From IMG/VR virus record IMGVR_UViG_3300031525_000002: DNA of 64,000 nt; one strand, written 5' to 3'. The notes under the pieces were generated by a model. The model was not told where the DNA came from, did no database searches, and saw nothing but the letters and a program-made list of their open reading frames with translations. Positions 4,461-64,000 of the stretch are shown here, in pieces. The translations under genes and the position numbers were made by a program. How positions within the stretch are numbered: position 1 is the first letter of the stretch; every line of letters begins with the position of its first letter. The DNA is from an uncultured virus (IMG/VR IMGVR_UViG_3300031525_000002) (lineage: Duplodnaviria; Heunggongvirae; Uroviricota; Caudoviricetes).

Positions 4461-4689
4461 CCGGCGAGCGCCTCGACACCTGCGTCGCGTGCCTCGCCGA
4501 GCACGCCCCTCAACTGAAGGACGCTGACAACTCCTACGTGGCCGAGGTCGCGACGGTCACCGTTATCGCGCATGCGGTACGGCATCGCTTGTCGGTGGAC
4601 GACCTCGTGTCGCAGATGTGCAAGACCCACGCGCTGGCGCTCGCCGTAGGCCTGCGGTCGTTCGCCGAGACCGACAAGGAGCCTCTCCA

Positions 4690-48205: not shown

Positions 48206-48477
48206 GTTCCCACAAATGCGCGCTTTTCGGGTGGAAACGGCTCTGTCAAGTGAGGAGGTAGGACCATGTTCAAGGTGATGAAGCAGGTGGTCGATGGCGC
48301 TGGAGTGCATCGGTGGACGGCCGCCGGGCCGGCGCAGTACCCGACCGAGGGTGAGGCGGAGAAGGGCATGCGGCGGGCCATGCTGGCCTCGCTGAGGGGC
48401 CAGCACGCCGAAGGGTACCGCTGCGCCCGATTCAAGATTGCGCCCGTCCTGGCCGCCGTGGCGTGCCTGGTCTTGCA

Positions 48478-49416
48478 GTGACCGGAGTTCTCCACACAGG
48501 GGACGCTCTCACGGTCCTGCGCACGCTTCCCGCCGCATCGGTCCAGTGTTGCGTCACGAGCCCACCATACTGGGGCCTGCGGGATTACGGTGTCGAGGGC
48601 CAGCTCGGCCTCGAAGAGACGCCGGACGCCTACGTGGAACGCCTGGTGGGTATCTTCGCAGAGGTCCGGCGCGTGCTCAGGACGGATGGAACATGCTGGG
48701 TCAACCTCGGGGACTCGTATGCAAGGAAGGGCCAGCACAAGCCGGGGGATTCGGGGAAGCAGGCTGGCGTCTACGACAGAGGTGGCGGTCGCGCGAGTGC
48801 CACCATGGACTTCACGACGAGCGGATTCAAACCCAAGGACCTGATCGGCATTCCGTGGATGGTGGCCTTCTCGCTGCGAAAGGAAGGCTGGTATCTGCGC
48901 TCGGACATCGTTTGGGCCAAGCCGAACGTGATGCCCGAGAGCGTCACCGATCGCCCAACAAAAGCGCACGAGTACGTTTTTCTCCTGAGTAAGTCGGAAC
49001 GGTACTTCTACGACGCGGACGCGATTCGGGAGCCGCACACGATGAAGCCACAGAGGCGAATCAGTCCGATTGAGGAGCGCCCAAAGCACGGAGGCCGGCA
49101 AGCCCACACTGAGGCCGGATACCGGACGAGAGCGGCGCTGGGCTTTGATGGGCATCCTCTCGGTCGCAACGCTCGCACCGTATGGTCGATCAACACCAAG
49201 GCGTACAAGGGCGCCCACTTCGCGGTCTTCCCCGAGGAGCTGCCGCGTCGCTGCATCTTGGCCGGCTCTCGACCGGGCGATGTCGTGCTGGACCCCTTCG
49301 CGGGCAGCGGCACAACGTGCGCTGTCGCGAAGTCTCTCGGTCGCAACTTCCTCGGAATCGAGCTGAACGAAACCTACACGGCGCTGGCAGAGAAGCGCAT
49401 TGCAGAATCCGCGTGA
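48478..49416 (+). CDS. DNA N4-cytosine methyltransferase (SPPY type)
   Basis: VTSPPYWGLRDY, NLGDSY, KPKDL.GIPW, HFAVFP, VLDPFAGSGTT. Confidence 0.9.
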   Translation: MTGVLHTGDALTVLRTLPAASVQCCVTSPPYWGLRDYGVEGQLGLEETPDAYVERLVGIFAEVRRVLRTDGTCWVNLGDSYARKGQHKPGDSGKQAGVYDRGGGRASATMDFTTSGFKPKDLIGIPWMVAFSLRKEGWYLRSDIVWAKPNVMPESVTDRPTKAHEYVFLLSKSERYFYDADAIREPHTMKPQRRISPIEERPKHGGRQAHTEAGYRTRAALGFDGHPLGRNARTVWSINTKAYKGAHFAVFPEELPRRCILAGSRPGDVVLDPFAGSGTTCAVAKSLGRNFLGIELNETYTALAEKRIAESA

Positions 49417-52527: not shown

Positions 52528-53118
52528 GTGACGCGCGAGGAGTCGCAAGCATCGGCCGCTTGGCGCCCGGGCATAGGCGGCTACTCGGTCGACATCCTCC
52601 CGTGGATCGACGCCATCGCCCCGACGAGGCCGAAGCCGCTGGCGCTGGTCGAAATTGGGGTGCTGTACGGCAGATCGATCCTCTACTGGGCCGAACGCCT
52701 CCGCCAACTCGGCCACGGCGCCGACACGCGCCTCGTGGGCGTCGACATGCCCGTCCTCGACCCAGACGGCCATGCGGTGCTCAAGCGCAACCTGGAGGAG
52801 ACGAGGAGCGCGTGGGAGCCCGTGACGGTCGAGCTCGACCTCCGGCCCAGCGTGGAGGCGGCAGCGAGTTATGCGGACGGGTCGTTCGACATCGCTTTCA
52901 TCGACGGCTCGCATAAGGAAGCCGATGTCCGAGCCGACATCGAGGCGTGGAGGCGGAAGGTCCGCGCGGGCGGCATTCTTGCGGGCCACGACTACGGCTG
53001 GCGGAGCGGTGACCATGCGGGCGTCAAGATTGCCGTCGACGCGCTTCTCGGGCCGGTGGAGCACCGCGACAGCGTCTGGTGGCAAATCGTCACGCGGGAA
53101 CCCATCGCCCGTCCGTGA
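52528..53118 (+). CDS. Class I SAM methyltransferase (Methyltransf_24-like)
   Basis: VEIGVLYGRS...GVD...FIDGSH....V.ADI.AW...V..GG.LAGHDY. Confidence 0.85.
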   Translation: MTREESQASAAWRPGIGGYSVDILPWIDAIAPTRPKPLALVEIGVLYGRSILYWAERLRQLGHGADTRLVGVDMPVLDPDGHAVLKRNLEETRSAWEPVTVELDLRPSVEAAASYADGSFDIAFIDGSHKEADVRADIEAWRRKVRAGGILAGHDYGWRSGDHAGVKIAVDALLGPVEHRDSVWWQIVTREPIARP

Positions 53119-53362
53119 GGAGTCCGTGGTGACCGCATGCACGGCACTCGAGTGAGGGTGAGAGCGAGAGCGGCGACTAGCGTACCAGATCCCAACCGTC
53201 GTCCCACGCAGGCTTGACGGAGACGCAGCCTTGGCATTCGGAGCCATCCTTCGGGTTCGGATGCCAGTAGAAGACGTGTGCGATGACGCCGTTCATGCGA
53301 CGCACCTCGAAGCGCACGCCGAGGCCCGCGTCAACGATGGGGTCCGCAGTGCAGAGCGTCAC
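53090..53362 (-). pseudogene. DUF6527-like Cys/His protein interrupted by an in-frame TAG at 53177-53179
   Basis: Reads ...WDLVR*SPLSLSPSLECRACGHHGLLTDGRWVPA in one frame. Confidence 0.6.
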
Positions 53363-53365
53363 TTG

Positions 53366-54019
53366 CTACGGTCGCACCTCCCATACGGTGCCGTAGATCG
53401 CCACGCGATCCCCAAAGACGCGATCCACAGCGGCCTTTACACCAACATAAAGAGGGTGGCCGTAGTCGTGGCCGGAGAGGAACCCGGCCCCCTTCTTCAC
53501 TTTCGGCAGCCACGCTTCGATGTCCGCGCGCACGGAGTCTTCCCGGTGATCGCCATCGAGAAACACGAGGTCTAGCGAGTCGTCGTCGTAGAACCGGGCG
53601 GCTCCGGGGCTCGCTTCCCGAAAAATAGAGATGAGTCGGACGACATCCAGGTCGAGCTTCTCGAGATTGGCGACGAGTTGCGGGAAAGAATTCCACATGA
53701 CGTTCGCCGACCCCCAGGGGGCGACCTGAGCGGGAGGATACTGGTGTCCGGCGTCCTCTTGCCCCGGATCGAATCCGTGGACCTCTGACCGATGCTTTCC
53801 GCAGCGGACGAGTTCCTCCGCGAGGAAAATGAGCGAACGGCCGAAATAGCACCCGACCTCGATGCAATGCGCATCCTCGGGGAGGGACGGAACGATCCTA
53901 CGGTAGTAAGGGAGGATGTCGCGGCTCCAGCCGACGATGTCTTGGTGCCACGCGTCGGACCACTCGAGACCGTCGACGTTGCGGAGGAGGTCGGCCAGTT
54001 GCGCCGCAATCGGATCCAT
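53366..54019 (-). CDS. Class I SAM methyltransferase (Methyltransf_24-like)
   Basis: IEVGCYFGRS...FD...VFLDGDH....V.ADI.AWLPKV....LSGHDY. Confidence 0.85.
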   Translation of the reverse strand: MDPIAAQLADLLRNVDGLEWSDAWHQDIVGWSRDILPYYRRIVPSLPEDAHCIEVGCYFGRSLIFLAEELVRCGKHRSEVHGFDPGQEDAGHQYPPAQVAPWGSANVMWNSFPQLVANLEKLDLDVVRLISIFREASPGAARFYDDDSLDLVFLDGDHREDSVRADIEAWLPKVKKGAGFLSGHDYGHPLYVGVKAAVDRVFGDRVAIYGTVWEVRP

Positions 54020-54642
54020 CAGACGAACTTTCCATAAATATCGGCCCTCGTCAGCACGGCCTGCGTGTTGCCCCAGTGGTGACGACCGAAGATGGGAGCG
54101 TCACCTGGCGCCGGCGTGCCCGTGTAGTGCTCGGGTAGGAAGTGCCGAGCCGGAAACACGTGGGTCTCGCGATGGTGCTTCCCTATGCGCGTGAGGAAGG
54201 CCGGGCCCACGCACTCCCACGCTGCCACTTTCAGGTTGCAGGTCGGCACGCGGTTCACGAGCTCGTTGAAGAGGCGCGAGCCAGGCCGAGCCCCGAGGAC
54301 CGTCGTGGCCATCATACCTGGGCGGCACGTCTCGTTTTCCCAGCAACACCAAGACTCGTGTTCCAGAAATCTCTGGTCGAGCGCGTCGAGCGGCTGCAGA
54401 CACTCCTCGTCGGCGTCAACGTAAACGCCGCCATGCTTCGCGAGGAGTTCGAACCGCATGATGTCGGCCTTGCCGTTGAGCTCGGGCATCAGGTCGATCT
54501 GACGCTGGTTGCGCCATCCACGGTCGGAGATGTGCAGGCGGAACTCCCACTTCGGATTGAGCGCAGCCCACGTATCGAGTAGCTTGCGCGGAGCGGGCTT
54601 GGGACCGATCCAAATGGCGTGGATGATGCGAGGGAATTCCAC
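54019..54642 (-). CDS. DXD-motif glycosyltransferase (Gly_transf_sug/GT32-like)
   Basis: PRIIHAIWIG...KADIMRFELL..HGGVYVDAD...GP.FLT...HHW. Confidence 0.85.
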   Translation of the reverse strand: MEFPRIIHAIWIGPKPAPRKLLDTWAALNPKWEFRLHISDRGWRNQRQIDLMPELNGKADIMRFELLAKHGGVYVDADEECLQPLDALDQRFLEHESWCCWENETCRPGMMATTVLGARPGSRLFNELVNRVPTCNLKVAAWECVGPAFLTRIGKHHRETHVFPARHFLPEHYTGTPAPGDAPIFGRHHWGNTQAVLTRADIYGKFV

Positions 54643-54657
54643 TGTGTCGAGCGTATC

Positions 54658-55443
54658 ATGACCGTCGCCATCAGCGTGATAGTGCCATCGATGGGGCAGG
54701 CGAAGTACCTCCCCGAGGCGCTTGCGAGCATCCGTGGGCAAACTTTCGCCGGTGATGTGGAGGTCGTCGTCGCCGCTGGCACGGAGGCGGAAGCGAGTCT
54801 CGCGCGTGCGCTGGGCGTCGTCGCAGTGGTGGACGGTTGCGACCGAGGCCCGGGTGACGCACGGAATCGGGCCATCGATGTGGCCACGGGCCCGTACATT
54901 CTGCCGCTCGACGCCGACGACGTGCTCGAGCCGATGTGCCTTGAGCTCTTCATGAGTCACGCGGACGACAACACCATCGTCTCGTCCTCGACGAAGTCGT
55001 TCGGGATACGCAACTCCGTGTGGGTCCTGCCGCCCTTTGACAAGGTCCTCGAGATGAACCCGCTCAGTACGGCGTCGCTCTTCCCGCGGAAGATGTGGGA
55101 ACAGGTTGGCGGGTTCGACGTGGGGCTCGGGTACGAGGATTGGGACTTCTGGGTGAAATGCAGCAAGCTACAGCCGCAGGTCGTGCAACTCCGGGAAACG
55201 CTCCTTCGCTACCGCGTGCACAGCGAGAGTGCGATGGCGCGCATCGACGCGGAGCGGCTCGATCCGCTGTATCGAGCGATGCTGCGACTGCGTCACCCGG
55301 ACTGCTATGCGGGCAATGAGCCGCGAGACCAGGAGACGGTCGCGAGAATGTCGCCCCAAGTCTATCGTCGCCTCATCGAGCGTCTCCGTGCTTTCCCGGA
55401 CAATGCTGCGCTGCTAGCCTTCAAGGCCATGGTGTTCTCGTGA
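54658..55443 (+). CDS. Family 2 glycosyltransferase
   Basis: ISVIVPS....YL.EAL.SI..QT...ARNRAI.....YILPLDADD...VGGFD....EDWDFW. Confidence 0.9.
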   Translation: MTVAISVIVPSMGQAKYLPEALASIRGQTFAGDVEVVVAAGTEAEASLARALGVVAVVDGCDRGPGDARNRAIDVATGPYILPLDADDVLEPMCLELFMSHADDNTIVSSSTKSFGIRNSVWVLPPFDKVLEMNPLSTASLFPRKMWEQVGGFDVGLGYEDWDFWVKCSKLQPQVVQLRETLLRYRVHSESAMARIDAERLDPLYRAMLRLRHPDCYAGNEPRDQETVARMSPQVYRRLIERLRAFPDNAALLAFKAMVFS

Positions 55444-56042
55444 GACCCGACGCGCCTGAAGAGATCGTGGCGAAGCGCATCCCGCCGAGCGGCGACAGCG
55501 ACTGGCACCCGGAGATTCTCGGGTGGTCGGGCGGCATCCACGAGTTCTACGGGAAGATGGCGGTCGAGTTCGCGTCGGACGCGAAGTTCGTGGAGCTCGG
55601 GGTCTACAAGGGGCGGGGCATCCTCTGGTTGGCGTGCAAGCTGCGCGAACTGGGCAAGCTTGACGTGCAACTCGTGGGCATCGACGATGGCGTCTACTAC
55701 GACAGCCACGGCGAACTCATGCGCAACGTTGCCGCTGTGACGGACGGCTGGGGCGAGCGGCCCGCCGTGGAGATACGCAGGATGCGCGGGCGCGACGCCG
55801 CCCCCAGCTACCCCAACGGGTCGCTCGACTGCGTGTTCATCGATGCCGACCACTCGGCGGACGCGGTCTACCAGGACATCGTCACGTGGCTGCCGAAGGT
55901 GAAGCAAGGAGGGGTGCTCGCCGGACATGACTACGCACACGTCGACTGCCCAGGCGTGAAGGTGGGCGTCGATCGCTTCTTCGGCCAGGGGCGCGTCACG
56001 CTGGACCCGGACACGATTTGGCGGGTGCGGGTCGGCGCGTGA
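55440..56042 (+). CDS. Class I SAM methyltransferase (Methyltransf_24-like)
   Basis: VELGVYKGRG...GID...VFIDADH....V..DI..WLPKVK.GG.LAGHDY. Confidence 0.85.
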   Translation: MRPDAPEEIVAKRIPPSGDSDWHPEILGWSGGIHEFYGKMAVEFASDAKFVELGVYKGRGILWLACKLRELGKLDVQLVGIDDGVYYDSHGELMRNVAAVTDGWGERPAVEIRRMRGRDAAPSYPNGSLDCVFIDADHSADAVYQDIVTWLPKVKQGGVLAGHDYAHVDCPGVKVGVDRFFGQGRVTLDPDTIWRVRVGA

Positions 56043-56564
56043 GCAAGTCGTGCGATACGTGCCTCTCGTTCCTGCACGACACCGCGCAACACGACGGGCT
56101 CTGTAAGGAACCGATGACGTACAGGTGCTCGGCGGGCGCAGCGTGCATCTTCCACGAGCACAATGCCGCATGCGATAGACCGCGCGAGCACGAAGGGGCG
56201 CACGACTGCATGGAAAGCTACGTGATGTGATGCCCGAAGGGCCGTACCGAACGTCACCACGAGGCCCCGTACGCGTCATGTCGTGCGATCCTCCGTGCGA
56301 CTGGTCGCCGAAAGATTGGACTGCGGCGGGACGCGCATGCTTCGCATCAGGCCCACGGACGACACGCTCGTCATCGTGGCTGGAATTGCCCATCTGGAGT
56401 CGTGCCCGACGGTGCCTCGCGGCACCTGAGCTCGCTCTCCAGCCACTCGCTCGGGTACGGCGAGCACTGGTGGCAGAGCATGTGTCGCAGCTGCTCGACG
56501 GTGAAGGTGTGGAGGTCGTGCGGTCGCACGCCCGTCGCCCAGATTGCGGTGGCTTCGGCGCGCG

Positions 56565-56855
56565 TCATGACGCCCACTCCGAGCCGACGAGGCGGCCGTC
56601 GCGAATCGCGCAGGCTTCCTCGTGGCGGTGGATGAACTCGCGTCCTTCAGGCGTGACTACGTACGCGAGCACGGGGCGACGCCCGAAGACGTTCTCGGTG
56701 TCGCCGAAGCGCGAGGGGCGAAGGTAGCCCAGCCGGAGCAGCTTGCTGATGGCGGCCCGGTCGAGCCGGTCGTGGTCATGCGGGTTGGGCATGTCATCGA
56801 AGTCGGCGAGGATGTCGTACAGGACGGAGGCGGAGAGGCGGTGCGGCTTGCTCAT
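56565..56855 (-). CDS. Small winged-helix-like hypothetical protein
   Basis: MSKPHRLS...AISKLLRLGYL...YVVTPEGREF. Confidence 0.5.
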   Translation of the reverse strand: MSKPHRLSASVLYDILADFDDMPNPHDHDRLDRAAISKLLRLGYLRPSRFGDTENVFGRRPVLAYVVTPEGREFIHRHEEACAIRDGRLVGSEWAS

Positions 56856-56896
56856 ATGAGAAAGACGCGGGGGGAGGCGGGTTCTGACAGAGACGA

Positions 56897-57772
56897 TCAG
56901 AATGCCCGATGCCGCTCCCAGAACGCCCTGTCGAGCATCGCCCCCCGCGTCCCGCTGAAGCTGGTGGCGCCCACGTGCTCGAGCGGCGCCCCTTCGCCAA
57001 GGTAGAGGTGCAGGCGGCCGCCCATCGCGCGCCACCGGTCACAGAAGGCCACGTCCTCCATGGTGAACACGCGTCGCTCGAGGCCCGTGTGAAAGAGGCC
57101 GACGTGCTCTTCATGTACCGGCTTGCCGTCGTCGTCGAGCCAGTCCTTGTCGTACCGGAGCGAATCCTTGTAGTGGGCCGTCATCTTCTCGAAGACCTCG
57201 CGCTTGATGAGCGCGAACCCGAAGGGGACGTGACGCGGCATCTCCGCGATTCCGTCGGCGCCGACCTCCCCGAGGACCTCGCAGCGGAAGTCGGGCACGT
57301 ACCGAACGGTGTAGCCGCGTAGGATCTCACCGAGTTCCTCGGCGGTGACCTCGGGGTGCTCGCGCAGGTGCTCGATGGCCTTCTGCGCCCCTTGGACCCA
57401 GTGTCGTGACTTCTGGATGTACGGGACGGCGATGATCGGCTTATCGGCCTTGAGGAGGCGCGTGAGCAGAGGCGCGATCTGGCCGGAGGTCGTCGGCTTC
57501 ACGTCCGAATCCCATAGGAGCGCGTGCGTGTACTGCCGCGGGTGCGCCAAGAAGAGGCGAACCAGGTTGTTGCGCGCGTGCTCGATGCAGTTGGGGTACG
57601 GCTGCGGGTCGAGCTCGACCGAGCCCCCGTCCCACGACTTGTCGTCGCAGATCACGTCGAGTTGCTTGCCGAGTTGGTAGAGGGTACCGGCGATGGCGCG
57701 GCTGAGGCCGGCGGCTTCGCTGTCACCGTATAACGGCAGAAGCGCGCAAATTCGGAAGTTGGCCATCGTCAC
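56897..57772 (-). CDS. GT-A fold glycosyltransferase (phage type)
   Basis: IEHARN.LV..FL...THALLWDSDV...GFALIKREVFEKM...EDVAFC.RW...GG......L.HVG. Confidence 0.8.
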   Translation of the reverse strand: MTMANFRICALLPLYGDSEAAGLSRAIAGTLYQLGKQLDVICDDKSWDGGSVELDPQPYPNCIEHARNNLVRLFLAHPRQYTHALLWDSDVKPTTSGQIAPLLTRLLKADKPIIAVPYIQKSRHWVQGAQKAIEHLREHPEVTAEELGEILRGYTVRYVPDFRCEVLGEVGADGIAEMPRHVPFGFALIKREVFEKMTAHYKDSLRYDKDWLDDDGKPVHEEHVGLFHTGLERRVFTMEDVAFCDRWRAMGGRLHLYLGEGAPLEHVGATSFSGTRGAMLDRAFWERHRAF

Positions 57773-58384
57773 TCACCCCGACCTCGCCTTGAACGCCTCC
57801 CGAGCGGCCGTATGCCCCCCGAGCGACTGGATGCGGGTGAAGTCGTCAGATCCCGCTCCGTACTTCCGAATGAACGCGAACCATGGCGCGTCCGCTACGC
57901 GGCGCTCCTCGTCACGCGCGCGACGCTCGGCCGCCTCACGATCCCGAGTCGCCTCGCGCTTCTCTGCGCTCGCCTTACGCTTCGCCTCGAGCCCGGAGAC
58001 CGCCTCCGACGAGAAGCTCGCCTCGCCCGGATCGAACATGCGCCCGTGGTTCTTCCCCGAGCACTGGCACTCGCAGGTAAAGCCGGTCGATGACGTGCAC
58101 TTCGCGGAGCACACCTCCTTCGCGCTGTACCGCCCACGGATCTCGGTGGCCCGGCGTGGCTTGTGGCACTGGCGGCAGTCGATGACGAAGGCCCCCTCGA
58201 CGTTGAGGTGCGGCGCGCCCTTCGGCTGCGCGTAGACGTAGACGTTGCTGCCCTGAGGCGCACGGCGCGCCTCGTCGGCGCTCGAGGTGCGGCTCGTGGC
58301 GATGCCACACGCCTTGCACTTGGCGATCCAGCGGCAGCGCTTGAGGAGGACCGGGCCGGGTAAGGTGGTACCGATGAGGCTCAT
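57773..58384 (-). CDS. MSLIG-tag protein with Zn-binding motifs
   Basis: Starts MSLIGT; CKAC, CRQC, CSAKC...CECQCSGKNHG. Confidence 0.75.
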   Translation of the reverse strand: MSLIGTTLPGPVLLKRCRWIAKCKACGIATSRTSSADEARRAPQGSNVYVYAQPKGAPHLNVEGAFVIDCRQCHKPRRATEIRGRYSAKEVCSAKCTSSTGFTCECQCSGKNHGRMFDPGEASFSSEAVSGLEAKRKASAEKREATRDREAAERRARDEERRVADAPWFAFIRKYGAGSDDFTRIQSLGGHTAAREAFKARSG

Positions 58385-58614
58385 CGCTGCACCGGTGCGG
58401 CCTTGATGACCTTGCCTCCTCGCCGGTACGTCTCCTGCTGAATCGCAACGATGGCACTGCGAGGTGCGAAGACGCGGACGTAGAGGAACGGGCGCTTCGG
58501 TTCACCCGTCTGGTACCCTTGACGCTCACACCACTCGCGGAACGCCTCCGCTTCGTACGTGGCGCCGAATTCGCTCAGGCAGTGCCACGGGCGGTCCATG
58601 AGGCCACCGTTCAT
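58381..58614 (-). CDS. Small hypothetical protein in the tag array (degenerate start MNGGLM)
   Basis: ATGA overlaps on both sides. Confidence 0.6.
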   Translation of the reverse strand: MNGGLMDRPWHCLSEFGATYEAEAFREWCERQGYQTGEPKRPFLYVRVFAPRSAIVAIQQETYRRGGKVIKAAPVQR

Positions 58615-59249
58615 CGGGACACCACGTCGCGCTTCGCGCGCCCCAGAGGGTCCCGCTCGGACGTGGGGTACGTGAACACGCGGTGGGGTCGGTCGGAACT
58701 CTGCTCGGCCGCATAGGCGCGCGCCTTGGCGAGGTCCTTCGCGTCACCCCGGTTCTTCCACATCGCCGCCCGTGGCACGCGGACCGTCTTGAAGGTCGGC
58801 AGGCGCCACGTGGACCCCTCGCGCTCGACCTGCTGCTCCTCGGTCGTCCACGCGAGGACGATCTTCATCTTCGCTGGCTCTAGCGGCTCGCGCGCCTCAC
58901 GCTTCTCCTCGGCCTCGATGAACGCCTCGCGCGCCATCTGCTCGCGGTGCTCGCTGGCGTCAGGCGTCCGCACGCGTGGAGCCCGAGGCGCCGTCGGCGC
59001 CGCCTCGCGCTCGTTGAGTACCCGGACCGCCCACGCGCACGCCGACGCTGCTGTGGAGCCGTACGGACCCGCTGCGTGCTCAATCCACCTGCGCTTGCCG
59101 GTCCGCTCGACCGAGCCCATGAAGACGCCCGACTGCTCGACGCGCCATGACCGCTTGCAGACCGGAGACGCGCCTCGGTCGGGGATGAGCGTCAGGATGC
59201 CGTGCGTGATCGTCTCACGCGGGTCGGGCTTGCGTCCGATGAGGCTCAT
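58611..59249 (-). CDS. MSLIG-tag basic hypothetical protein
   Basis: Starts MSLIGRK; ATGA overlap. Confidence 0.75.
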   Translation of the reverse strand: MSLIGRKPDPRETITHGILTLIPDRGASPVCKRSWRVEQSGVFMGSVERTGKRRWIEHAAGPYGSTAASACAWAVRVLNEREAAPTAPRAPRVRTPDASEHREQMAREAFIEAEEKREAREPLEPAKMKIVLAWTTEEQQVEREGSTWRLPTFKTVRVPRAAMWKNRGDAKDLAKARAYAAEQSSDRPHRVFTYPTSERDPLGRAKRDVVSR

Positions 59250-59611
59250 CGCACGCGCTCCTCATCCTCGGCCTTCCGGTACTCCTCCATCTCCTTGGCG
59301 TACTCGCGCATACGACCGGCGGCGTACTCCGACCACCCATCGGCCCAAGCGTCGTGGAGGCGTCGCTTCTGCGCAGGTGTGGCCGTCACACCGGTCGGCA
59401 TGTAGTCGTCGACGTCGGGCGGCGACCCCTGGTCAAGGAGCCACCGCTTGATCGCAGCAGCGGAAGGCGTCTTGCCGACCTCCTCCGCGATCTCGGCTGG
59501 ACCCATGGTGTTGCCTGCGTCCTGGCGCCCGGTCGTCCGCCAGAACGGAAGCTCCTTCACGAGCTCGGTCTCCGTGAGCGTGCGCGAGGGGGGCTTGCCG
59601 ATAAGGCTCAT
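59246..59611 (-). CDS. MSLIG-tag hypothetical protein
   Basis: Starts MSLIGKP at ATG 59611; ATGA overlap. Confidence 0.75.
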   Translation of the reverse strand: MSLIGKPPSRTLTETELVKELPFWRTTGRQDAGNTMGPAEIAEEVGKTPSAAAIKRWLLDQGSPPDVDDYMPTGVTATPAQKRRLHDAWADGWSEYAAGRMREYAKEMEEYRKAEDEERVR

Positions 59612-60234
59612 CGCAGCGCCTCCACGGGCAGGAAACGAACCCGAGCGCCGCCACCCATGACGGTGACGGTGTCGCCCCGGTCGGCGCGCCTGAGGGCGGC
59701 CAGGTCGGTTGCCGACAGGCTCTCGCGGTTGTCGCGGATGAAGGTGACGAGGCCGCATTCCCCCTCGTCACCCCGGTCGGACCGCCAGTGCACCGGGAGG
59801 TCCTGGGCGCCTTTGGCAAACGCCTTGACGGCGGGGGCGAGGGTTCGGTGGCCTTCCGAGGTGATGCGCCCGTCCTCAACGACGTAGAAGCCACCGCTTG
59901 AGGCGATCCCGATCTGACCCCGGCGAGAAAAGCCGAGCGTCACATTGTAGCGCAGGCCCGTACCATTTGTTCCTGGGATGGCCGTCACCGTTGGCTTGGC
60001 CGAAGGAGCCTTGTAGAGCCCGTGCGTCTTGAGTGCGCGCTCCTCGGTCTGGCGACGCTCGCGGCCCTCGCGACGGGCCTCGGCGCGCTTGCTCCTGGCC
60101 ACCCACGCCGGCACGGCCCCCATCTTCGCGAGGTTCTCGTGTGCGCGCGCGACCTCGAGAGCCTGCGCTTCCACGCGCCGACGGTAGGCGATGTTCGACT
60201 GCTCGGCTTCGGGCAATTTGCCGATGAGGCTCAT
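59608..60234 (-). CDS. MSLIG-tag basic hypothetical protein
   Basis: Starts MSLIGKL; ATGA overlap. Confidence 0.75.
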   Translation of the reverse strand: MSLIGKLPEAEQSNIAYRRRVEAQALEVARAHENLAKMGAVPAWVARSKRAEARREGRERRQTEERALKTHGLYKAPSAKPTVTAIPGTNGTGLRYNVTLGFSRRGQIGIASSGGFYVVEDGRITSEGHRTLAPAVKAFAKGAQDLPVHWRSDRGDEGECGLVTFIRDNRESLSATDLAALRRADRGDTVTVMGGGARVRFLPVEALR

Positions 60235-61049
60235 GCGCCACCCAGCCGGTACATCTCGTCGCTCGAGCCGCGAATCTCCTTCGCGCCCGACCCAGGACGG
60301 TCCCAGACGCGGCCGTTGTAGCTTACGTGTCCGATGACCTTGCCGGAGGCGTCACGGATGTCCCCGCCCGTCCAGTTACCACCCCCGAGCTCGTTCTTGG
60401 TGATGAACTGCTGCACGACGCTGGACGCCTCCAGGTAGCTGGTGACGGGAACCCGGTGCGAGCGAATCGAGACGGAACCACGATGGTCGCTCGAGTAACT
60501 GGAGTGGGTGAAGTCGGGGTTCGGCTCGGCAGCGAGCTCCACGGACCAGTTGCCCGACTCCGCCCCGCGCGACTCCTTCGCCTTGAGGTGCGCCTCGAGC
60601 AGTTCCGCAGCTCGGCGGCACACGAGGACTCGCCAGGTCGGAAAGGCTTGCCCAGACCGCCCCCCTTCGCCCCCGTTCGGGTCGAGGGACCATCCGTTGT
60701 ACGGGATCGCGTTCACGTGACGCCGGGGGGGCGCGCCCCGCTTGACGCTGCCCATGAATTCGCCGTTCAGTTCGACGAGCCACGACCCCTTGTTGGGCTG
60801 AAGCATCATGAAGTTGCCGTCCGTCAGCACCTTCGTCGAGTAGGGGGCGATGTGCAGGGGCGAGCCGGGGACGTTCGCGGGGATCGACGCCTTCGCGCGC
60901 CGTGGGCGCTTCGGAGGCGTGGCGTAGGGGTCGGCCATGTGCGCTCGGAGGTCGGCCCGGCGCTCCGCGTCCGTCCGCTGGGTCCGCTGGGGCTTCGGCG
61001 CGGGCCGGTCGAAGAGCGATAGCGATGTCGGCTTGCCGATGAGGCTCAT
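60231..61049 (-). CDS. MSLIG-tag protein with a C-terminal EAS...LGGGNWTGG...SYNGRVW domain
   Basis: Starts MSLIGKPTSLSLFDRPAP; C-terminal motif recalled from mobile-element hypothetical proteins. Confidence 0.75.
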   Translation of the reverse strand: MSLIGKPTSLSLFDRPAPKPQRTQRTDAERRADLRAHMADPYATPPKRPRRAKASIPANVPGSPLHIAPYSTKVLTDGNFMMLQPNKGSWLVELNGEFMGSVKRGAPPRRHVNAIPYNGWSLDPNGGEGGRSGQAFPTWRVLVCRRAAELLEAHLKAKESRGAESGNWSVELAAEPNPDFTHSSYSSDHRGSVSIRSHRVPVTSYLEASSVVQQFITKNELGGGNWTGGDIRDASGKVIGHVSYNGRVWDRPGSGAKEIRGSSDEMYRLGGA

Positions 61050-61543
61050 GGCGACCTCGGCATCACATAGGCCACCCCATCAACGACGTAGCCACCCTTG
61101 ACCACGCCACCGATGCGCTTGGCAGCGCGGGCCATGGTGTCCTTGGAAATGCACGCCTCGACAACACGAGCATCGTCGCGACGAGATGTCATCGCGAAGA
61201 AGATGAACTGAGCCCGGTTGAACCCGCGAACGCTCGCGGCAGCATCGGGAAACATCTGATGCGCGCGAGCGCCTGCTGGCACATTGGCGGGGACGTTCGC
61301 GGCGGGCGCGGGAGCCTGGCGAGCCGGGCTCGGGTGCTTGTCTCTGGTGAGACCGCACTGGAAGCACTTGTCTGAGCCGCCCGGCATGCGGTCGAACCGA
61401 TGTGTGACGGGTTCGGCATCCATGGTGGCCATGAGCGCCCGGTACGCGGCTCGACTCCCAGGCTTCGGCGCGGTCGGCGCGGGCGCGGGCCTGTCGAAGA
61501 GCGACAGCGATGCCGTATCCTTGGGCTTGCCGATGAGCGCCAT
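61046..61543 (-). CDS. MALIG-tag hypothetical protein
   Basis: Starts MALIGKPKDTASLSLFDRPAP. Confidence 0.75.
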   Translation of the reverse strand: MALIGKPKDTASLSLFDRPAPAPTAPKPGSRAAYRALMATMDAEPVTHRFDRMPGGSDKCFQCGLTRDKHPSPARQAPAPAANVPANVPAGARAHQMFPDAAASVRGFNRAQFIFFAMTSRRDDARVVEACISKDTMARAAKRIGGVVKGGYVVDGVAYVMPRSP

Positions 61544-61878
61544 CAGTACCCCTTCATACCGCGAAAATGCGCTGCCTGCTCGCGAAGTCCCTTCGCCCGC
61601 AGTTCGGACGGTTCGAGGCGCGCAGCTTCGTCGAGCAGGTCAGCAGCACGGTTGTTCTTGGCCGCGCTCAAGCCCATGTCGTCGGCTGCTGCGTTCGCTG
61701 CGACCATGGCCACGCTTGTCGCGTGGTCGGCCTTGCTGCGCCGCTCGTCCGCCGCCCGCCCCTCGGAACTGCGCGACCACGCCTCGGAGGCCCGGTCCTC
61801 GGCGGCGAGCCCCGCACGGAGCTTGCGCCCCATGTCGCGCTCCTCGGCGGTGGGACCCTTGCGTCCGATGAGGCTCAC
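61543..61878 (-). CDS. MSLIG-tag helical hypothetical protein
   Basis: GTG start, (M)SLIGRK. Confidence 0.7.
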   Translation of the reverse strand: MSLIGRKGPTAEERDMGRKLRAGLAAEDRASEAWSRSSEGRAADERRSKADHATSVAMVAANAAADDMGLSAAKNNRAADLLDEAARLEPSELRAKGLREQAAHFRGMKGY

Positions 61879-62429
61879 GTCCGCCTCCCCGCCGCAGCCT
61901 TGCGCTCGCGCGCGCGTCGCTTCGCGTCACGGTACTCCCGCGCCTCGAAGCCGGTCCTCGGTCGGTAGTCGCGATCGCGAACCGGTTCGCCGAGTTCGGA
62001 GTAGAGCGGGATCGACGCGCGGCTTGTGAATGAGCGACCGCCTTGGTAATTCGAGGAACGCTCGTACTCGACGCCGCCCCACCGTCCCACCGCTTCGCCC
62101 ATCCGGATATTGCTGTACTGCGTGCCCATGCGCCGGGTGGTGATCGTCCCGTGCGTGAGCAGCATGCGCGCCTCGATGGCAGCGGGGTCCAACTTGTCCT
62201 CGAGAAGCCCGATGGCGATGCGGTCGAGCGGCCCGCCCGATGGGCGCGCGTAACCCAACCACGTCTCGATGCCGTCGCTGCCGGCGGCGCGATAGAGTTC
62301 CACGCGGCCGCCTCGGAACCGGATGGCGACGTACTTCCGTCCCCGGTAGGTGAATTCCTTGCGCGCGAGCTTGGGGGCGTCGTGGAGAGGGTCGTGGGGA
62401 GCGCGAGGGAAGCGACCGATGAGGCTCAT
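61875..62429 (-). CDS. MSLIG-tag basic hypothetical protein
   Basis: Starts MSLIGRF at ATG 62429; ATGA overlap. Confidence 0.75.
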   Translation of the reverse strand: MSLIGRFPRAPHDPLHDAPKLARKEFTYRGRKYVAIRFRGGRVELYRAAGSDGIETWLGYARPSGGPLDRIAIGLLEDKLDPAAIEARMLLTHGTITTRRMGTQYSNIRMGEAVGRWGGVEYERSSNYQGGRSFTSRASIPLYSELGEPVRDRDYRPRTGFEAREYRDAKRRARERKAAAGRRT

Positions 62430-62794
62430 GGCGTCCTCCGAAGATGCGTGAGGCCGGGATTGTACTTCGTGTCCCAGTCGCCGTGCTCGATGCGGAAGCT
62501 CGGCGAACCGCGCAACTCGTAGGCTTCGCCACCGTAACCGCGACTCCCCACCTTCCACGGGAACAGGTCGTTCTGTCCGTCGGACACCTTGAACATGCCG
62601 GTGACATGGCGGCCGCTCAAGCGACGAACGATGGCGACAGCGCCCGACTTGCTCTTGGAGAACCCGACCCGGTTGTACGCCGCGAGGTCCTCGGGATCGC
62701 TGTGCGTGGCCCAGACGCCCCACCCGCGCTGGATAGACGTGGGAGCGAACGTGAAGGCGACCTTGGAGTAGCCGCTACCGCCGATGAGACCCAT
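62426..62794 (-). CDS. MGLIG-tag hypothetical protein
   Basis: Starts MGLIGG; TAATG overlap. Confidence 0.7.
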   Translation of the reverse strand: MGLIGGSGYSKVAFTFAPTSIQRGWGVWATHSDPEDLAAYNRVGFSKSKSGAVAIVRRLSGRHVTGMFKVSDGQNDLFPWKVGSRGYGGEAYELRGSPSFRIEHGDWDTKYNPGLTHLRRTP

Positions 62795-63177
62795 TACCCG
62801 CGCCTCGCTTTCGCCGCCCCAGCGTCCACGTACTCGTGAAACCGACGGATCGCACGCGTGACCTCTGCGTCGGCGGCGGGCAGTTCGTCGCGATGGTACG
62901 CCTCAGCGTAGTGCTTCGCCTTGAACGCCCTATCCTTCTCCTGCTCGAGCCGCTGGAGCTCGGGGTCGTTCCACATCGAGGCGTAGTACGCCTTCTCGCG
63001 CACAGCGCTCTGAATCTCACCGGGCGAGCGACCGAGAATCGCGCCCGTGCGGATGCGGTAGTCGAGGTCAGTCTCCCCGTGACGATGCTCGATCGCCTTC
63101 CGGCATTTCACGCAGTAATTCTTCGACCCGCGGATCTTGTTGCCGCAGTAGCAGGTGCCGGAGATGAGCGTCGTCAT
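62794..63177 (-). CDS. Tag-variant (MTTLISG) Zn-finger hypothetical protein
   Basis: ATG at 63177; CYCG...YCVKC. Confidence 0.7.
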   Translation of the reverse strand: MTTLISGTCYCGNKIRGSKNYCVKCRKAIEHRHGETDLDYRIRTGAILGRSPGEIQSAVREKAYYASMWNDPELQRLEQEKDRAFKAKHYAEAYHRDELPAADAEVTRAIRRFHEYVDAGAAKARRG

Positions 63178-63380
63178 TTTCGCCCGAACTTCCCCTGGTC
63201 GAGCAGCCCGTACTGCTGATTGAACAGCGAAAACTGCTCGGCGGGTGGCGGTGGCGGCTTGGGACGCGTCTCCATGCCGGCGAAGAGTGCGGGCGTGCGC
63301 GCGCATGCCGAGCAAAGCTTACGGTTCTTCTGCGGGCGGTGGCACCCGGGGCACTTGTTCTTCACGCCGATGAGACTCAT
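63174..63380 (-). CDS. MSLIG-tag small Zn-finger protein
   Basis: Starts MSLIGVK; CPGC...CSAC; EQFSLF. Confidence 0.7.
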   Translation of the reverse strand: MSLIGVKNKCPGCHRPQKNRKLCSACARTPALFAGMETRPKPPPPPAEQFSLFNQQYGLLDQGKFGRK

Positions 63381-63589
63381 CCGAGCAACCTTCCTTGTCT
63401 GCCGCCATCGTCCGTGACGAGCGCCTCGCGGTACGCCCACCCACGCTCACCGTTGTCCCAGTGAATGAGCGCGCGGCCAGGTCCAGCGACCTGGTCGACG
63501 GTGCCCTTGGCGTCGGCCGACACCGCTACGCCCGTCACCCGGAGCGAGTACGCAGCGCAGACGCGGTCACCGCGACGCAGGCGTCTCAT
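63377..63589 (-). CDS. Small SH3-like hypothetical protein ending in RLLG
   Basis: GDRV...GTV...IHWDNG; C-terminal GRLLG. Confidence 0.6.
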   Translation of the reverse strand: MRRLRRGDRVCAAYSLRVTGVAVSADAKGTVDQVAGPGRALIHWDNGERGWAYREALVTDDGGRQGRLLG

Positions 63590-64000
63590 CCGAGCAATCC
63601 TCTCCGGGGCTTCCCGATCTCAGAGTCTCGCACGTTGATGACCGCGTCGAGCGATGCCTTCGGATAGTCGACGAGCGCATCGTAGACCATATCGCTCCAC
63701 GTCAGATACGTCGTGTGCCCCTCCGGCCCCTTGTGCGACACGCGCGTTACACGCCACTTCCGCGAGGTCGGGTCGATGGAGAACCAGAGCTTGCGCGCGA
63801 CGTATGGGCCTTTGGAGGCGTCGCCCGTCAGTATCTCGAAGGTCGCCTCGCCGTGGAGCCTGCGGAAGCGCCCCACAGCTCGCTTGCGGTTCGTCGCGTT
63901 GACGTGCACCGCCTTGAAGATGAGCTTGCCGTCTGCGCCGCGAACGGGCGTGTGACCGCGCTCGTCCAGCGGGTACGCCTGCCGCCACGCGCCGAGGCTC
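63586..64000 (-). CDS. Hypothetical protein ending in GLLG; 5' end at the window edge
   Basis: Frame is open to the edge and reads (..G)-S-L-G-A-W..., compatible with an MSLG start just outside the window. Confidence 0.6.
   Translation of the reverse strand, partial: SLGAWRQAYPLDERGHTPVRGADGKLIFKAVHVNATNRKRAVGRFRRLHGEATFEILTGDASKGPYVARKLWFSIDPTSRKWRVTRVSHKGPEGHTTYLTWSDMVYDALVDYPKASLDAVINVRDSEIGKPRRGLLG

What the first reader, a model, noticed from the sequence alone, without database searches (positions are those of the whole stretch)
57773..64000. Array of unrelated phage proteins sharing an N-terminal M-[S/A/G]-L-I-G tag: candidate packaging, export or processing signal system
Seen: 14 consecutive, translationally coupled minus-strand genes. 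Ten begin with [M/V]-[S/A/G]-L-I-G, usually followed by K/R (starts at 58384, 59249, 59611, 60234, 61049, 61543, 61878, 62429, 62794, 63380). One begins MTTLISG (63177), one MNGGLM (58614), and the gene cut by the window edge reads ..SLG. After the tag the proteins are largely unrelated (Zn fingers, helical, beta domains) and mostly R/K-rich. The DNA varies at synonymous positions (AGC/AGT, CTC/CTT, GGT/GGA/GGC), and residue 2 switches only among small residues (S/A/G). This points to selection on the peptide rather than on a DNA site. I saw no gene outside this block with the tag. Established: T4 internal proteins share a short N-terminal capsid-targeting sequence that is proteolytically removed; adenovirus and poxvirus core proteins are matured at short Gly motifs; a small residue 2 permits Met removal. 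Inference: LIG is an address or cleavage tag that lets the virus recruit arbitrary payload domains into the virion for co-injection (host takeover or anti-defence), forming an expandable cargo array.
Basis: partly seen in the sequence, partly recalled or inferred. Interest (0 to 1): 0.93.

Follow-up and report, generated by a model that had tools for sequence, protein, structure and literature searches.

The report
Terminal SLIG tag on effector array
In an uncultured peat mobile element, 15 of 17 neighbouring, mostly unrelated small basic proteins carry the same four-residue peptide (small-Leu-Ile/Leu-Gly) at one extreme end, which looks like a shared address label whose reader is still unknown.

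Summary
The window's own metagenome contig (L001) shows one operon of 17 coupled minus-strand genes.

- **N-terminal tags:** 12 genes begin M-[S/A/G]-L-I-G.
- **C-terminal tags:** three others end in G/R-L-[I/L]-G, including both genes that lack an N-terminal tag.
- **Terminal only:** the tetrapeptide occurs 15 times in 2,473 residues, always at an extreme terminus.
- **Confined to the array:** no gene outside it has the tag.

Selection looks peptide-level. Residue 2 is Ser (AGY) wherever the start overlaps the upstream stop, and Ala or Gly where it does not. Orthologues swap S/A and I/L while the flanking residues diverge. C-terminal copies use other Leu codons. Distant payload homologues lack the tag.

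Two payload domains recur inside giant "polyvalent" proteins, one of them encoded between portal and capsid genes.

My best reading is a terminal address tag that docks unbundled effector domains onto one common partner, perhaps for co-delivery with the DNA. No partner, virion gene or relatives' DNA could be examined, so a nucleic-acid junction element is not excluded. Earlier notes of this scan describe similar shared-tag arrays on other DNA.

The parts
57773..58384 (-). Last array gene (203 aa, 10 Cys, pI 9.6), starts MSLIGTTL
   Evidence: phrog_6842, E 1.2e-8. Orthologues start VSLLGTSPP or MSLLLPGLAPP.
58381..58614 (-). 77-aa gene with a degenerate tag, MNGGLMD (GGC CTC ATG GAC)
   Evidence: It is one of only two array proteins without the exact tetrapeptide at a terminus.
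58611..59249 (-). 212-aa gene, MSLIGRKP. The C-terminal AWTTE..FTYPTSERDPLGRAKRDV domain is of polyvalent-protein type.
   Evidence: The domain matches residues 863-926 of a 1,404-aa protein lying between portal and MuF-like/capsid genes in L002-L004.
59246..59611 (-). 121-aa gene, MSLIGKPP (Leu codon CTT). It is the only acidic array protein (pI 5.1).
59608..60234 (-). 208-aa gene, MSLIGKLP
   Evidence: No family or Atlas match.
60231..61049 (-). 272-aa gene, MSLIGKPTSLSLFD. Its C-terminal roughly 90-aa NPDF..GGNWTGG..VSYNGRVW domain is widespread.
   Evidence: 899 homologues at E<=0.001. They include giants with Kinase-PolyVal and LPD29. Orthologues start MALIGNGRQTSLFD or MSLLGNGRQTSLFG. 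AF2 pLDDT 90 with no PDB fold match.
61046..61543 (-). 165-aa gene, MALIGKPKDTASLSLFDRPAP (1-nt TGATG overlap, codon 2 GCG)
   Evidence: In relatives its N-terminal module is fused to the AWTTE domain (P0160, P0161).
61543..61878 (-). 111-aa gene, GTG start, VSLIGRKG
61875..62429 (-). 184-aa gene, MSLIGRFP. The tag and linker (residues 1-19) are predicted to be disordered.
   Evidence: Orthologues start MSLIGR, MSLIGH, MSLIGK or MSLLIEG; the most distant one, P0170, has no tag. AF2 gives pLDDT <50 for residues 1-19.
62426..62794 (-). 122-aa gene, MGLIGGSG (1-nt TAATG overlap, codon 2 GGT)
62794..63177 (-). 127-aa gene with a degenerate tag, MTTLISG; CxxC-rich
63174..63380 (-). 68-aa gene, MSLIGVKN (Ser codon AGT), with CxxC pairs and QFSLF near the C-terminus
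63377..63589 (-). 70-aa gene without an N-terminal tag (MRRLRR) but ending ..GRLLG-stop (TTG CTC GGA TGA)
63586..64000 (-). 138-aa gene cut by the window edge. It starts MSLGAWRQ at window-equivalent 64002 and ends ..RRGLLG-stop.
   Evidence: Three more array genes lie beyond the window, followed by the 193-bp leader region: L001:4126-4386 (MYDGQ..KKGLIG), L001:3551-4126 (MSLIGPKS..FEGLI) and L001:3198-3554 (MALIGGKP).
56897..57772 (-). Downstream boundary: a 291-aa untagged gene (phrog_1574) that starts directly after the stop of the last array gene
   Evidence: It shows that close coupling on this strand does not require the motif.

Best explanation
The array is one operon of at least 17 translationally coupled genes in an uncultured peat mobile element. 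It encodes small, mostly basic, mostly unrelated proteins.

Fifteen of them expose the tetrapeptide [S/A/G/R]-L-[I/L]-G at an extreme terminus:
- Twelve carry it at the N-terminus, right after Met, followed by a disordered Lys/Arg/Pro-rich linker.
- Three carry it at the C-terminus, preceded by Lys or Arg.

I read the tetrapeptide as a protein-level address tag, that is, a short linear motif on a flexible tether that lets one common partner recognise interchangeable payload domains.

Two payload domains are of the kind otherwise strung together in giant polyvalent proteins of phages and conjugative elements. I therefore read the array as an unbundled version of such a protein. In this reading the tag's most likely job is to recruit each payload to the machinery that delivers proteins together with the DNA, either by loading into the particle or by transfer.

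Shown here: the tag, its terminal exclusivity, its confinement to the array, the peptide-level substitution pattern, and the polyvalent-type payloads.

Inferred: that a single partner reads the tag, and that the purpose is co-delivery.
For: 1. Exclusivity. The tetrapeptide occurs 15 times in 2,473 array residues. Twelve are at residues 2-5 and 3 are the last four residues. None is internal.
2. Confinement. No predicted gene outside the array has it. Of 14 six-frame candidate starts that match the looser pattern, 2 lie outside the array (24006-, 55140+) and neither is in my gene set.
3. Both proteins that lack an N-terminal tag (MYDGQ.., MRRLRR..) carry the C-terminal version.
4. Codon 2 tracks a small residue rather than a DNA word. 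It is AGC or AGT in all 9 exact tags whose ATG or GTG overlaps the upstream TGA, and GCG, GGT, GCG in the 3 that do not overlap.
5. At the 17 ATGA-overlap junctions outside the array, residue 2 is Thr 8, Ser 3, Asn 2, Lys 2, Arg 2, and none has the tag.
6. The C-terminal LLG copies use TTG CTC. Both C-terminal GLI/GLIG copies are in frame with the upstream gene.
7. Orthologues keep L3 and mostly G5, and swap S/A and I/L, while residues 6-15 diverge or are deleted. Examples: MSLIGTTLPGP vs VSLLGTSPPGP; MSLIGKPTSLSLFD vs MALIGNGRQTSLFD vs MSLLGNGRQTSLFG; MSLIGRKPDP vs MALIGRKPDP; MSLIGRFPRAPHDPLHD vs MSLIGRDPLHD, MSLIGHDPLYD, MSLIGKTPD.
8. Modularity. In a relative the AWTTE domain is a separate gene with its own MSLIGRK tag (P0159), or is fused behind another array gene's N-terminal module (P0160, P0161). 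Distant homologues of the payloads have no tag (P0162-P0165, P0170, and the standalone NPDF-domain proteins).
9. Payload kinship. The NPDF domain occurs in a 1,931-aa protein with Kinase-PolyVal (E 4.3e-42) and a 1,780-aa protein with LPD29 (E 5.6e-15). The AWTTE domain lies at residues 863-926 of a 1,404-aa protein. That protein is encoded between portal (E 5.4e-41) and MuF-like and capsid (E 2e-40) genes in three IMG/VR contigs.
10. Passages of PMC5512222 predict that such proteins are injected with the DNA.
11. The tag plus linker is modelled as disordered (pLDDT <50 for residues 1-19).
12. Sixteen of 17 array proteins have pI above 9, against 23 of 59 other genes.
13. Precedents in passages read: T4 internal proteins are diverse defence proteins that share only a capsid targeting sequence (PMC3012670). 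Encapsulin targeting peptides are short Gly/Leu/Ile motifs, mostly C-terminal but N-terminal in ferredoxin cargo (PMC8346489).
Against: - No partner is identified.
- None of the 121 references scanned from the 68,384 bp seen (114 distinct proteins) matches a capsid, portal, terminase, protease, scaffold, tail or conjugation family. About 64 kb of the contig was not available.
- The same protein-pattern scan that found the contig in metagenome contigs did not find it in viral contigs. It is therefore not shown to be a virus.
- Four residues carry little information for specific recognition.
- Use of both termini is unusual.
- Leu CTC 11 of 12 and Ile ATC 12 of 12 exceed codon usage (CTC 57-61%, ATC 78-83%). 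My own rough figure for that excess is about 1 in 1,000, so some nucleotide-level constraint, or recent copying of the tag, is possible.
- The motif always sits at a cistron junction, which a nucleic-acid element also predicts.
- Only 2 of 17 payloads could be tied to polyvalent proteins.
- No DNA of relatives was obtained, so synonymous-site evolution across genomes is untested.
Confidence: 0.45

Rival explanations
1. The conserved unit is a nucleic-acid element at cistron junctions: (ATG)NNN-CTC-ATC-GG on DNA or mRNA. It could be a joint for cassette gain, loss and shuffling by short-homology recombination. It could also be an operator for a protein that co-regulates translation of all cistrons. 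In this reading the peptide is a by-product.
For: - The motif lies within 12 nt of the start codon at 15 of 17 junctions. It is sometimes in the upstream gene (GGGCTCATCTGATG, GGGCTCATCGGATG) and sometimes in the downstream gene.
- Leu and Ile codons are nearly invariant, beyond codon bias.
- The core ATGAG-N-CTCAT is a palindrome.
- Relatives show cassette-like rearrangements exactly at tags. One gene is split with a new tag, and modules are re-fused.
Against: - Codon 2 changes at 2-3 bases (AGC, GCG, GGT) yet always encodes a small residue.
- LLG copies are encoded TTG CTC.
- Orthologues change I to L and S to A.
- The two upstream copies are both in frame as G-L-I(-G).
- No consensus RNA structure appears across the 12 tagged junctions (0 pairs).
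- Promoter- and terminator-like sites are not above shuffles.
- Nineteen other coupled junctions in the same DNA work without the motif.
- Evolvability alone should not hold a 14-mer under purifying selection across orthologues of about 50% identity.
Confidence: 0.24
2. The tag is a peptide, but its reader is a host quality-control machine rather than a delivery system. It would be a chaperone handle or a degron: a hydrophobic Leu/Ile core flanked by basic residues, usable in either orientation. It would keep these proteins unfolded or short-lived during takeover or lysogeny decisions.
For: - The hydrophobic core with mirrored basic flanks (SLIG-K/R at N-termini, KK/RR-GL[IL]G at C-termini) sits on disordered tethers.
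- From memory only: Hsp70-type binding motifs have this make-up and bind in both orientations, and ClpX reads both N- and C-terminal signals.
Against: - No test was run.
- Promiscuous chaperone sites need not be terminal, nor so uniform.
- A mature N-terminal Ser, Ala or Gly is not a classical N-degron (recalled).
- This reading does not explain the polyvalent-type payloads.
Confidence: 0.12
3. The tag is a historical relic. New genes were added by copying or recombining at an existing gene start, so they inherited its first five codons. The tag has no present function.
For: - Extended identity in some tags (GGC AAG CCC after the tag in five genes).
- Shared N-terminal modules in two pairs of genes.
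- Two junctions share TTGCTCGGATGAG.
Against: - The tag is kept in orthologues of 54-85% identity while adjacent residues diverge or are deleted.
- The tetrapeptide never occurs internally.
- The substitutions are conservative.
- The N-untagged proteins carry C-terminal versions.
Confidence: 0.1

Closest known systems
Capsid targeting sequence (CTS) of phage T4 internal proteins and Alt
   Same: A short N-terminal peptide is the only thing shared by a diverse, fast-evolving set of basic proteins that travel with the DNA and counter host defences (passages of PMC3012670).
   Different: - The T4 CTS is about 10 residues and is cut off by the prohead protease (recalled). Here the tag is 4-5 residues.
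- No cleavage motif or protease is seen here.
- The tag also occurs at C-termini.
- The genes form one coupled operon.
- Encapsidation is unshown.
Encapsulin Family 1 targeting peptides (cargo-loading peptides)
   Same: These are short Gly/Leu/Ile motifs with a basic residue, on a flexible tether. They sit at the C-terminus of most cargo and at the N-terminus of ferredoxin cargo (consensus SDGSLGIGSLKRS; N-terminal TVGSL). They dock unrelated cargo to the inside of an HK97-fold shell (passages of PMC8346489).
   Different: - No shell gene lies in the 68 kb seen.
- The motif is similar in make-up, not in sequence.
- An encapsulin operon holds a few cargo genes, whereas this array has 17 genes.
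Polyvalent proteins of phages and conjugative elements (Iyer et al. 2017)
   Same: - Two payload domains are homologous to domains inside such giants.
- The domain content is mosaic and shuffled between relatives.
- The predicted role is early conflict with the host.
   Different: - The defining feature, many domains in one polypeptide, is absent. Here each module is its own gene with its own terminal tag.
- The tetrapeptide is not enriched in the giants examined (7 hits in 26,415 residues).
Start-associated sequences of Cluster K mycobacteriophages and PeSL cassettes of T4-type phages (both recalled, not read here)
   Same: A short conserved DNA word is repeated at many gene boundaries within one phage genome.
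   Different: Those lie upstream of the start codon or between genes, and they include promoter or stem-loop features. Here the conserved block is inside the coding sequence, shows amino-acid-level substitution, and has no promoter or stem-loop signal.

Membership tests
T4-type capsid targeting sequence system | Short N-terminal peptide shared by otherwise unrelated proteins of one phage | tested here: met
   12 of 17 array proteins start M-[SAG]-L-I-G, and no gene outside the array does.
T4-type capsid targeting sequence system | Tagged proteins are present in the prohead or virion | not testable with these tools
   No proteomics is available. No structural gene appears in the 68 kb seen.
T4-type capsid targeting sequence system | Tag removed by a prohead protease at a defined site | tested here: inconclusive
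   No peptidase family was found among the 121 references scanned (114 distinct proteins). No conserved residue follows the tag apart from frequent K/R/P. About 64 kb of the contig was not seen.
Encapsulin Family 1 targeting peptide | Short terminal Gly/Leu/Ile motif on cargo, at either terminus | tested here: met
   The tetrapeptide occurs at 12 N-termini and 3 C-termini and never internally. The usage at either terminus is taken from passages of PMC8346489.
Encapsulin Family 1 targeting peptide | HK97-fold shell gene next to the cargo genes | tested here: not met
   No Phage_capsid or encapsulin family hit was found in the 68 kb seen. The rest of the contig was not seen.
Encapsulin Family 1 targeting peptide | Match to the consensus SDGSLGIGSLKRS | tested here: inconclusive
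   By eye, only S-L-x-G and a following basic residue are shared. No alignment statistic is possible for 4-5 residues.
Polyvalent proteins (Iyer et al. 2017) | Two to fifteen disparate domains in one polypeptide | tested here: not met
   The array proteins are 68-272 aa and are separate ORFs, with 13 four-base and 3 one-base start/stop overlaps.
Polyvalent proteins (Iyer et al. 2017) | Domains drawn from the polyvalent-protein domain pool | tested here: met
   This holds for 2 of 17 proteins. The NPDF domain occurs in P0079 (Kinase-PolyVal) and P0096 (LPD29). The AWTTE domain occurs in the 1,404-aa L003 protein. The other 15 gave no match to the giants tested.
Polyvalent proteins (Iyer et al. 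2017) | Encoded beside portal/MuF packaging genes or a conjugative transfer system | tested here: inconclusive
   Such genes were not found within the 68 kb seen. They were found for the homologous domain in L002-L004.
Start-associated DNA sequences or PeSL-type boundary cassettes | Conserved word upstream of the start codon or between genes, with promoter or stem-loop | tested here: not met
   The conserved columns are the ATG plus codons 2-5 only, and upstream columns are not conserved. There are 0 consensus pairs. Promoter-like sites number 1 against 0.7 expected.

The most novel reading that the evidence does not exclude
A mobile element has taken the polyvalent-protein strategy apart. Instead of one giant injected protein, it encodes an expandable operon of single effector modules. 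Each module carries a four-residue tag, usable at either terminus, that plugs into one docking site. That site could be, for example, the inner face of an HK97-type shell, as encapsulin targeting peptides do. New payloads would then become co-delivered cargo simply by acquiring the tag at a gene boundary.
Probability: 0.25. Interest if true: 0.85.

Novelty: new variant of a known kind. Interest (0 to 1): 0.66.

Why it matters
If the tag is an address label, it would be one of the shortest known. I know of no other used at either terminus within one operon; that rests on my own knowledge and on one literature search.

It would also link three themes that are usually treated apart:
- T4-type capsid targeting.
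- Encapsulin cargo loading.
- Polyvalent injected proteins.

It would give a simple rule for spotting co-delivered counter-defence proteins in uncultured elements, and a minimal handle for loading foreign proteins.

It also adds a clean case to a pattern that this scan's earlier, unchecked notes report in other viruses, namely arrays of unrelated accessory proteins that share a terminal tag.

Two widespread payload domains of unknown function are flagged for study. One gives a confident model with no solved structural relative.

Tried and rejected
- **Close relatives' DNA.**
  - Five protein-pattern scans of viral contigs with array proteins or their alignments were run. Four found none that encodes a relative. 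The fifth found only three distant contigs with the AWTTE domain.
  - Two scans of genome contigs found none that encodes a relative.
  - The single metagenome scan returned only the window's own contig.
- **Exact 14-mer in viral contigs.** Seventeen look like gene starts and none is an array. This does not show absence.
- **Sequencing runs.** All 24 runs are peat metagenomes, and 3 may be the source. The four runs laid gave contigs identical to the stretch, with one G>T difference at L001:4214 and no difference in any tag. They therefore gave no information on relatives' codons.
- **Whole-record searches.** No genome is held for the window, and the record behind L001 is not held. About 64 kb of the contig stayed unseen.
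- **Families.** Pfam, PHROGs and NCBIfam gave nothing for the array proteins, except phrog_6842 for the last gene and sub-threshold hits.
- **ESM Atlas.** No usable hit for two proteins.
- **NPDF domain fold.** No PDB sequence match. No Foldseek match at E<=0.001. The best VIA-align Z was 4.5.
- **NPDF domain in annotated records.** No match in cultured phage records, and 5 plasmid records, all annotated hypothetical or not annotated.
- **Linker-relic idea.** I considered that the tag is a leftover inter-domain linker of a polyvalent protein. The tetrapeptide occurs 7 times in 26,415 residues of the large homologues, and once in the nine of at least 800 aa. ATGA overlaps also change frame, so simple splitting cannot create them.
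- **RNA hairpin or SD-sequestering structure.** No consensus pairs were found.
- **Literature.** 'MSLIG' together with 'phage' gave 7 unrelated papers.
- **Complex prediction was not used.** No candidate partner is available, and a stand-in clamp or chaperone would not test the main claim.

Full report
**What is there**

On the minus strand of 57773-64000 lie 14 back-to-back genes.

The DNA word ATGAGCCTCATCGG, allowing up to 2 mismatches, gives 12 matches in the window. Nine are at these gene starts. Three are plus-strand echoes of its partly palindromic core. The expectation is 0.54, and 0 of 100 shuffles reached 12.

A metagenome scan with an alignment of the last gene's orthologues returned the window's own contig. 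It is 132,819 bp; locus L001 is reversed, and the window coordinate equals 68385 minus the L001 coordinate. This adds 4.4 kb beyond the window edge.

The array has 17 genes. It begins after a 193-bp gap at L001:3198 with MALIGGKP. The next genes are MSLIGPKS, then MYDGQ.., then MSLGAWRQ, which is the gene cut by the window edge. The rest are inside the window.

Thirteen internal junctions are 4-base ATGA or GTGA overlaps, and three are 1-base overlaps. Promoter-like and terminator-like sites inside the array are not above shuffles (1 vs 0.7; 4 vs 4.6). It therefore looks like one operon.

**The motif is strictly terminal and confined to the array**

- Twelve proteins start M-[SAG]-L-I-G.
- Four consecutive proteins end ..EGLI, ..KKGLIG, ..RRGLLG and ..GRLLG.
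- The two proteins with no N-terminal tag (MYDGQ.., MRRLRR..) are among those with the C-terminal form.
- In the 2,473 residues of the 17 proteins, [SAGR]-L-[IL]-G occurs 15 times: 12 at residues 2-5, 3 as the last four residues, and none internally.
- The two proteins without it have degenerate versions (MTTLISG, MNGGLMD).
- In six frames of 68,384 bp, 14 of 3,083 candidate starts fit M[SAGT]L[ILVM]G. Twelve of these are the array genes. The other two (24006-, 55140+) are not in my gene set.
- Of 729 open frames of at least 60 codons, 4 end in L[IL]G or GLI. All four are array genes.

**Peptide or nucleic acid?**

Evidence for a peptide:
1. Codon 2 is AGC (8) or AGT (1) in the nine exact tags whose start overlaps the upstream TGA, which forces an A. 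It is GCG, GGT, GCG in the three that do not overlap. What is kept is a small residue, not a DNA word.
2. At the 17 ATGA junctions outside the array, residue 2 is Thr 8, Ser 3, Asn 2, Lys 2, Arg 2. None of these 17, nor the two 1-base junctions, has the tag. Coupling as such therefore does not need it.
3. The C-terminal LLG copies are encoded TTG CTC GG. The two upstream CTCATC copies are both in frame as G-L-I(-G).
4. Orthologues keep the tag while its surroundings drift:
   - Last gene: MSLIGTTLPGP vs VSLLGTSPPGP vs MSLLLPGLAPP.
   - The 272-aa gene: MSLIGKPTSLSLFD vs MALIGNGRQTSLFD vs MSLLGNGRQTSLFG.
   - The 212-aa gene: MSLIGRKPDP vs MALIGRKPDP or MALIGRKTDP.
   - The 184-aa gene: MSLIGRFPRAPHDPLHD vs MSLIGRDPLHD, MSLIGHDPLYD, MSLIGKTPD and MSLLIEGPKP. 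The most distant orthologue (47% identity) has no tag (MNAPKLQRVAF).
5. RNAalifold finds no consensus pair across the 12 tagged junctions. The only conserved columns are the ATG and codons 2-5.

Evidence for a nucleic-acid component:
- Leu is CTC in 11 of 12 tags and Ile is ATC in 12 of 12. The usage elsewhere is 57-61% and 78-83%. My own rough estimate of that excess is about 1 in 1,000.
- Gly varies (GGC 7, GGT 3, GGA 2).
- The core ATGAG-N-CTCAT is palindromic.
- The motif always sits at a junction.

I could not obtain DNA of any relative, so the decisive synonymous-site comparison across genomes is open.

**Payloads**

None of the 17 proteins has a Pfam, PHROG or NCBIfam assignment. The only exceptions are phrog_6842 for the last gene and sub-threshold hits.

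The C-terminal ~90 aa of the 272-aa protein (NPDF..GGNWTGG..VSYNGRVW):
- It has 899 homologues at E<=0.001 among 1.84 billion representatives.
- The ones I read are either short proteins that begin at or just before the domain, without the tag, or longer proteins that hold it internally.
- Others are giants. P0079 (1,931 aa) has Kinase-PolyVal (E 4.3e-42). P0096 (1,780 aa) has LPD29 (E 5.6e-15). Three have DUF2958.
- Its AF2 model is confident (pLDDT 90) but has no solved relative.

The C-terminal domain of the 212-aa protein (AWTTE..FTYPTSERDPLGRAKRDV):
- It matches residues 863-926 of a 1,404-aa protein (E 5.3e-14).
- That protein is encoded between portal (E 5.4e-41) and MuF-like (E 1e-5, below Pfam's cut-off) and capsid (E 2e-40) genes in three IMG/VR contigs.
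- Passages of PMC5512222 describe such polyvalent proteins as predicted to be injected with the element's DNA.

Relatives shuffle these modules at the tags:
- The AWTTE domain is a separate gene with its own MSLIGRK tag (P0159), next to the N-terminal half (P0157).
- Elsewhere it is fused behind the MSLIGKPKESSLSLFDRPAP module of another array gene (P0160, P0161).

Other properties of the array proteins:
- Sixteen of 17 have pI above 9, against 23 of 59 other genes in the window.
- In the AF2 model of the 184-aa protein, residues 1-19 have pLDDT <50 and the fold starts near residue 22.

**The element**

The 68 kb seen encodes:
- A tyrosine integrase.
- A VapE-like primase/helicase.
- Two SF2 helicases.
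- HNH and endonuclease-VII-like nucleases.
- At least six DNA methyltransferases, and DUF5131, DUF1643 and DUF4326 proteins.
- Flanking the array on the same strand, a nucleotide-sugar epimerase, a glycosyltransferase and three Methyltransf_24 genes.

None of the 121 references scanned (114 distinct proteins) matches a capsid, portal, terminase, tail, protease or conjugation family.

The pattern scans that found the contig among metagenome contigs did not find it among viral contigs (vs 24).

Whether it is a phage, a plasmid or an integrative element is open. About 64 kb of the contig was not available.

The stretch recurs in peat metagenome runs. Contigs of four laid runs are identical to it apart from one base.

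**How it most likely works**

I commit to a protein-level terminal address tag. The tetrapeptide sits on a disordered basic tether and is read by one common partner. This would allow interchangeable payload modules to be handled alike.

Two payloads are polyvalent-type domains. T4 internal proteins (passages) and encapsulin cargo (passages; C-terminal in most cargo, N-terminal in ferredoxins) are precedents for short terminal tags on diverse cargo. I therefore rank recruitment for co-delivery with the DNA as the most likely purpose.

This last step is inference. No partner or particle gene was seen.

Rivals are a junction-level DNA or RNA element (0.24), a chaperone or degron handle (0.12) and a functionless relic of gene-start copying (0.10).

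**Comparison and novelty**

The array works like a CTS or targeting-peptide system, but it fails or cannot be tested on the defining features of each family (see Membership tests).

It is not a polyvalent protein, because its modules are separate ORFs. The tetrapeptide is not enriched in the giants (7 hits in 26,415 residues).

A full-text search for 'MSLIG' with 'phage' found 7 unrelated papers.

Earlier notes of this scan (AI notes, unchecked) describe comparable shared-tag arrays in other viruses. One N-terminal tag is said to copy a scaffold tail. That note led me to check for the motif at the termini of other proteins here, and I found none outside the array.

I rate this a new variant of a known kind.

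Noticed in passing
window 60999-61016 (SLSLFD), 61481-61498 (SLSLFD) and 63213-63227 (QFSLF), minus strand; also orthologues P0007 and P0073: Three array proteins carry Q/S-x-S-L-F motifs just behind the tag or near the C-terminus. Orthologues read GRQTSLFD and GRQTSLFG. From memory, this resembles the bacterial sliding-clamp binding motif QL[SD]LF. If real, some payloads may dock on the host clamp.
   Followed up: no
L001:3150-3200 (window-equivalent 65185-65235): The first array gene has no Shine-Dalgarno-like sequence. A TACCAT hexamer ends 8 nt before its ATG, so it may be translated from a leaderless transcript. This reading is by eye only.
   Followed up: no
window 60264-60572 (-) and proteins P0008-P0156: The NPDF..GGNWTGG..VSYNGRVW domain (about 90 aa) has 899 homologues, either standalone or inside proteins of up to 1,931 aa. 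Its AF2 model is confident (pLDDT 90). It has no Pfam family and no solved structural relative (best Z 4.5). It is an uncharacterised domain of polyvalent proteins.
   Followed up: partly
L003:7415-11629 (also L002 and L004): A 1,404-aa protein without any Pfam hit is encoded between the portal gene and the MuF-like and capsid genes of three IMG/VR contigs. It holds the AWTTE..FTYPTSE[RK]DPLGRAKRDV domain at residues 863-926. It is a likely virion-borne polyvalent protein.
   Followed up: partly
window 4618-5457, 22970-24256, 29636-30829, 30863-32260, 47279-48205, 48463-49416: At least six DNA methyltransferase genes (N6, N4/N6 and C5 types) lie in 64 kb, with no restriction partner recognised. 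This is the pattern of an element armoured against restriction.
   Followed up: no
window 52528-57772 and L001:1139-2272: Sugar-modification genes bracket the array on or near the same strand. They comprise a nucleotide-sugar epimerase/dehydratase, a DXD glycosyltransferase, three Methyltransf_24 genes and a phrog_1574 protein. They may modify DNA or the cell surface.
   Followed up: no
window 58611-59249 and 60231-61049 (-): Two array proteins share a short module, KRSWRVEQSGVFMGSVER and KGSWLVELNGEFMGSVKR (67% identity over 18 aa). It is also kept in their orthologues. This points to a small adaptor-like domain between tag and payload.
   Followed up: partly
N-termini of the array proteins: After Met removal several proteins would start SLIGK.. 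or SLIGR... From memory, this coincides with the tethered-ligand peptides of mammalian protease-activated receptor 2 (SLIGKV, SLIGRL). In a peat element this is almost certainly coincidence.
   Followed up: no
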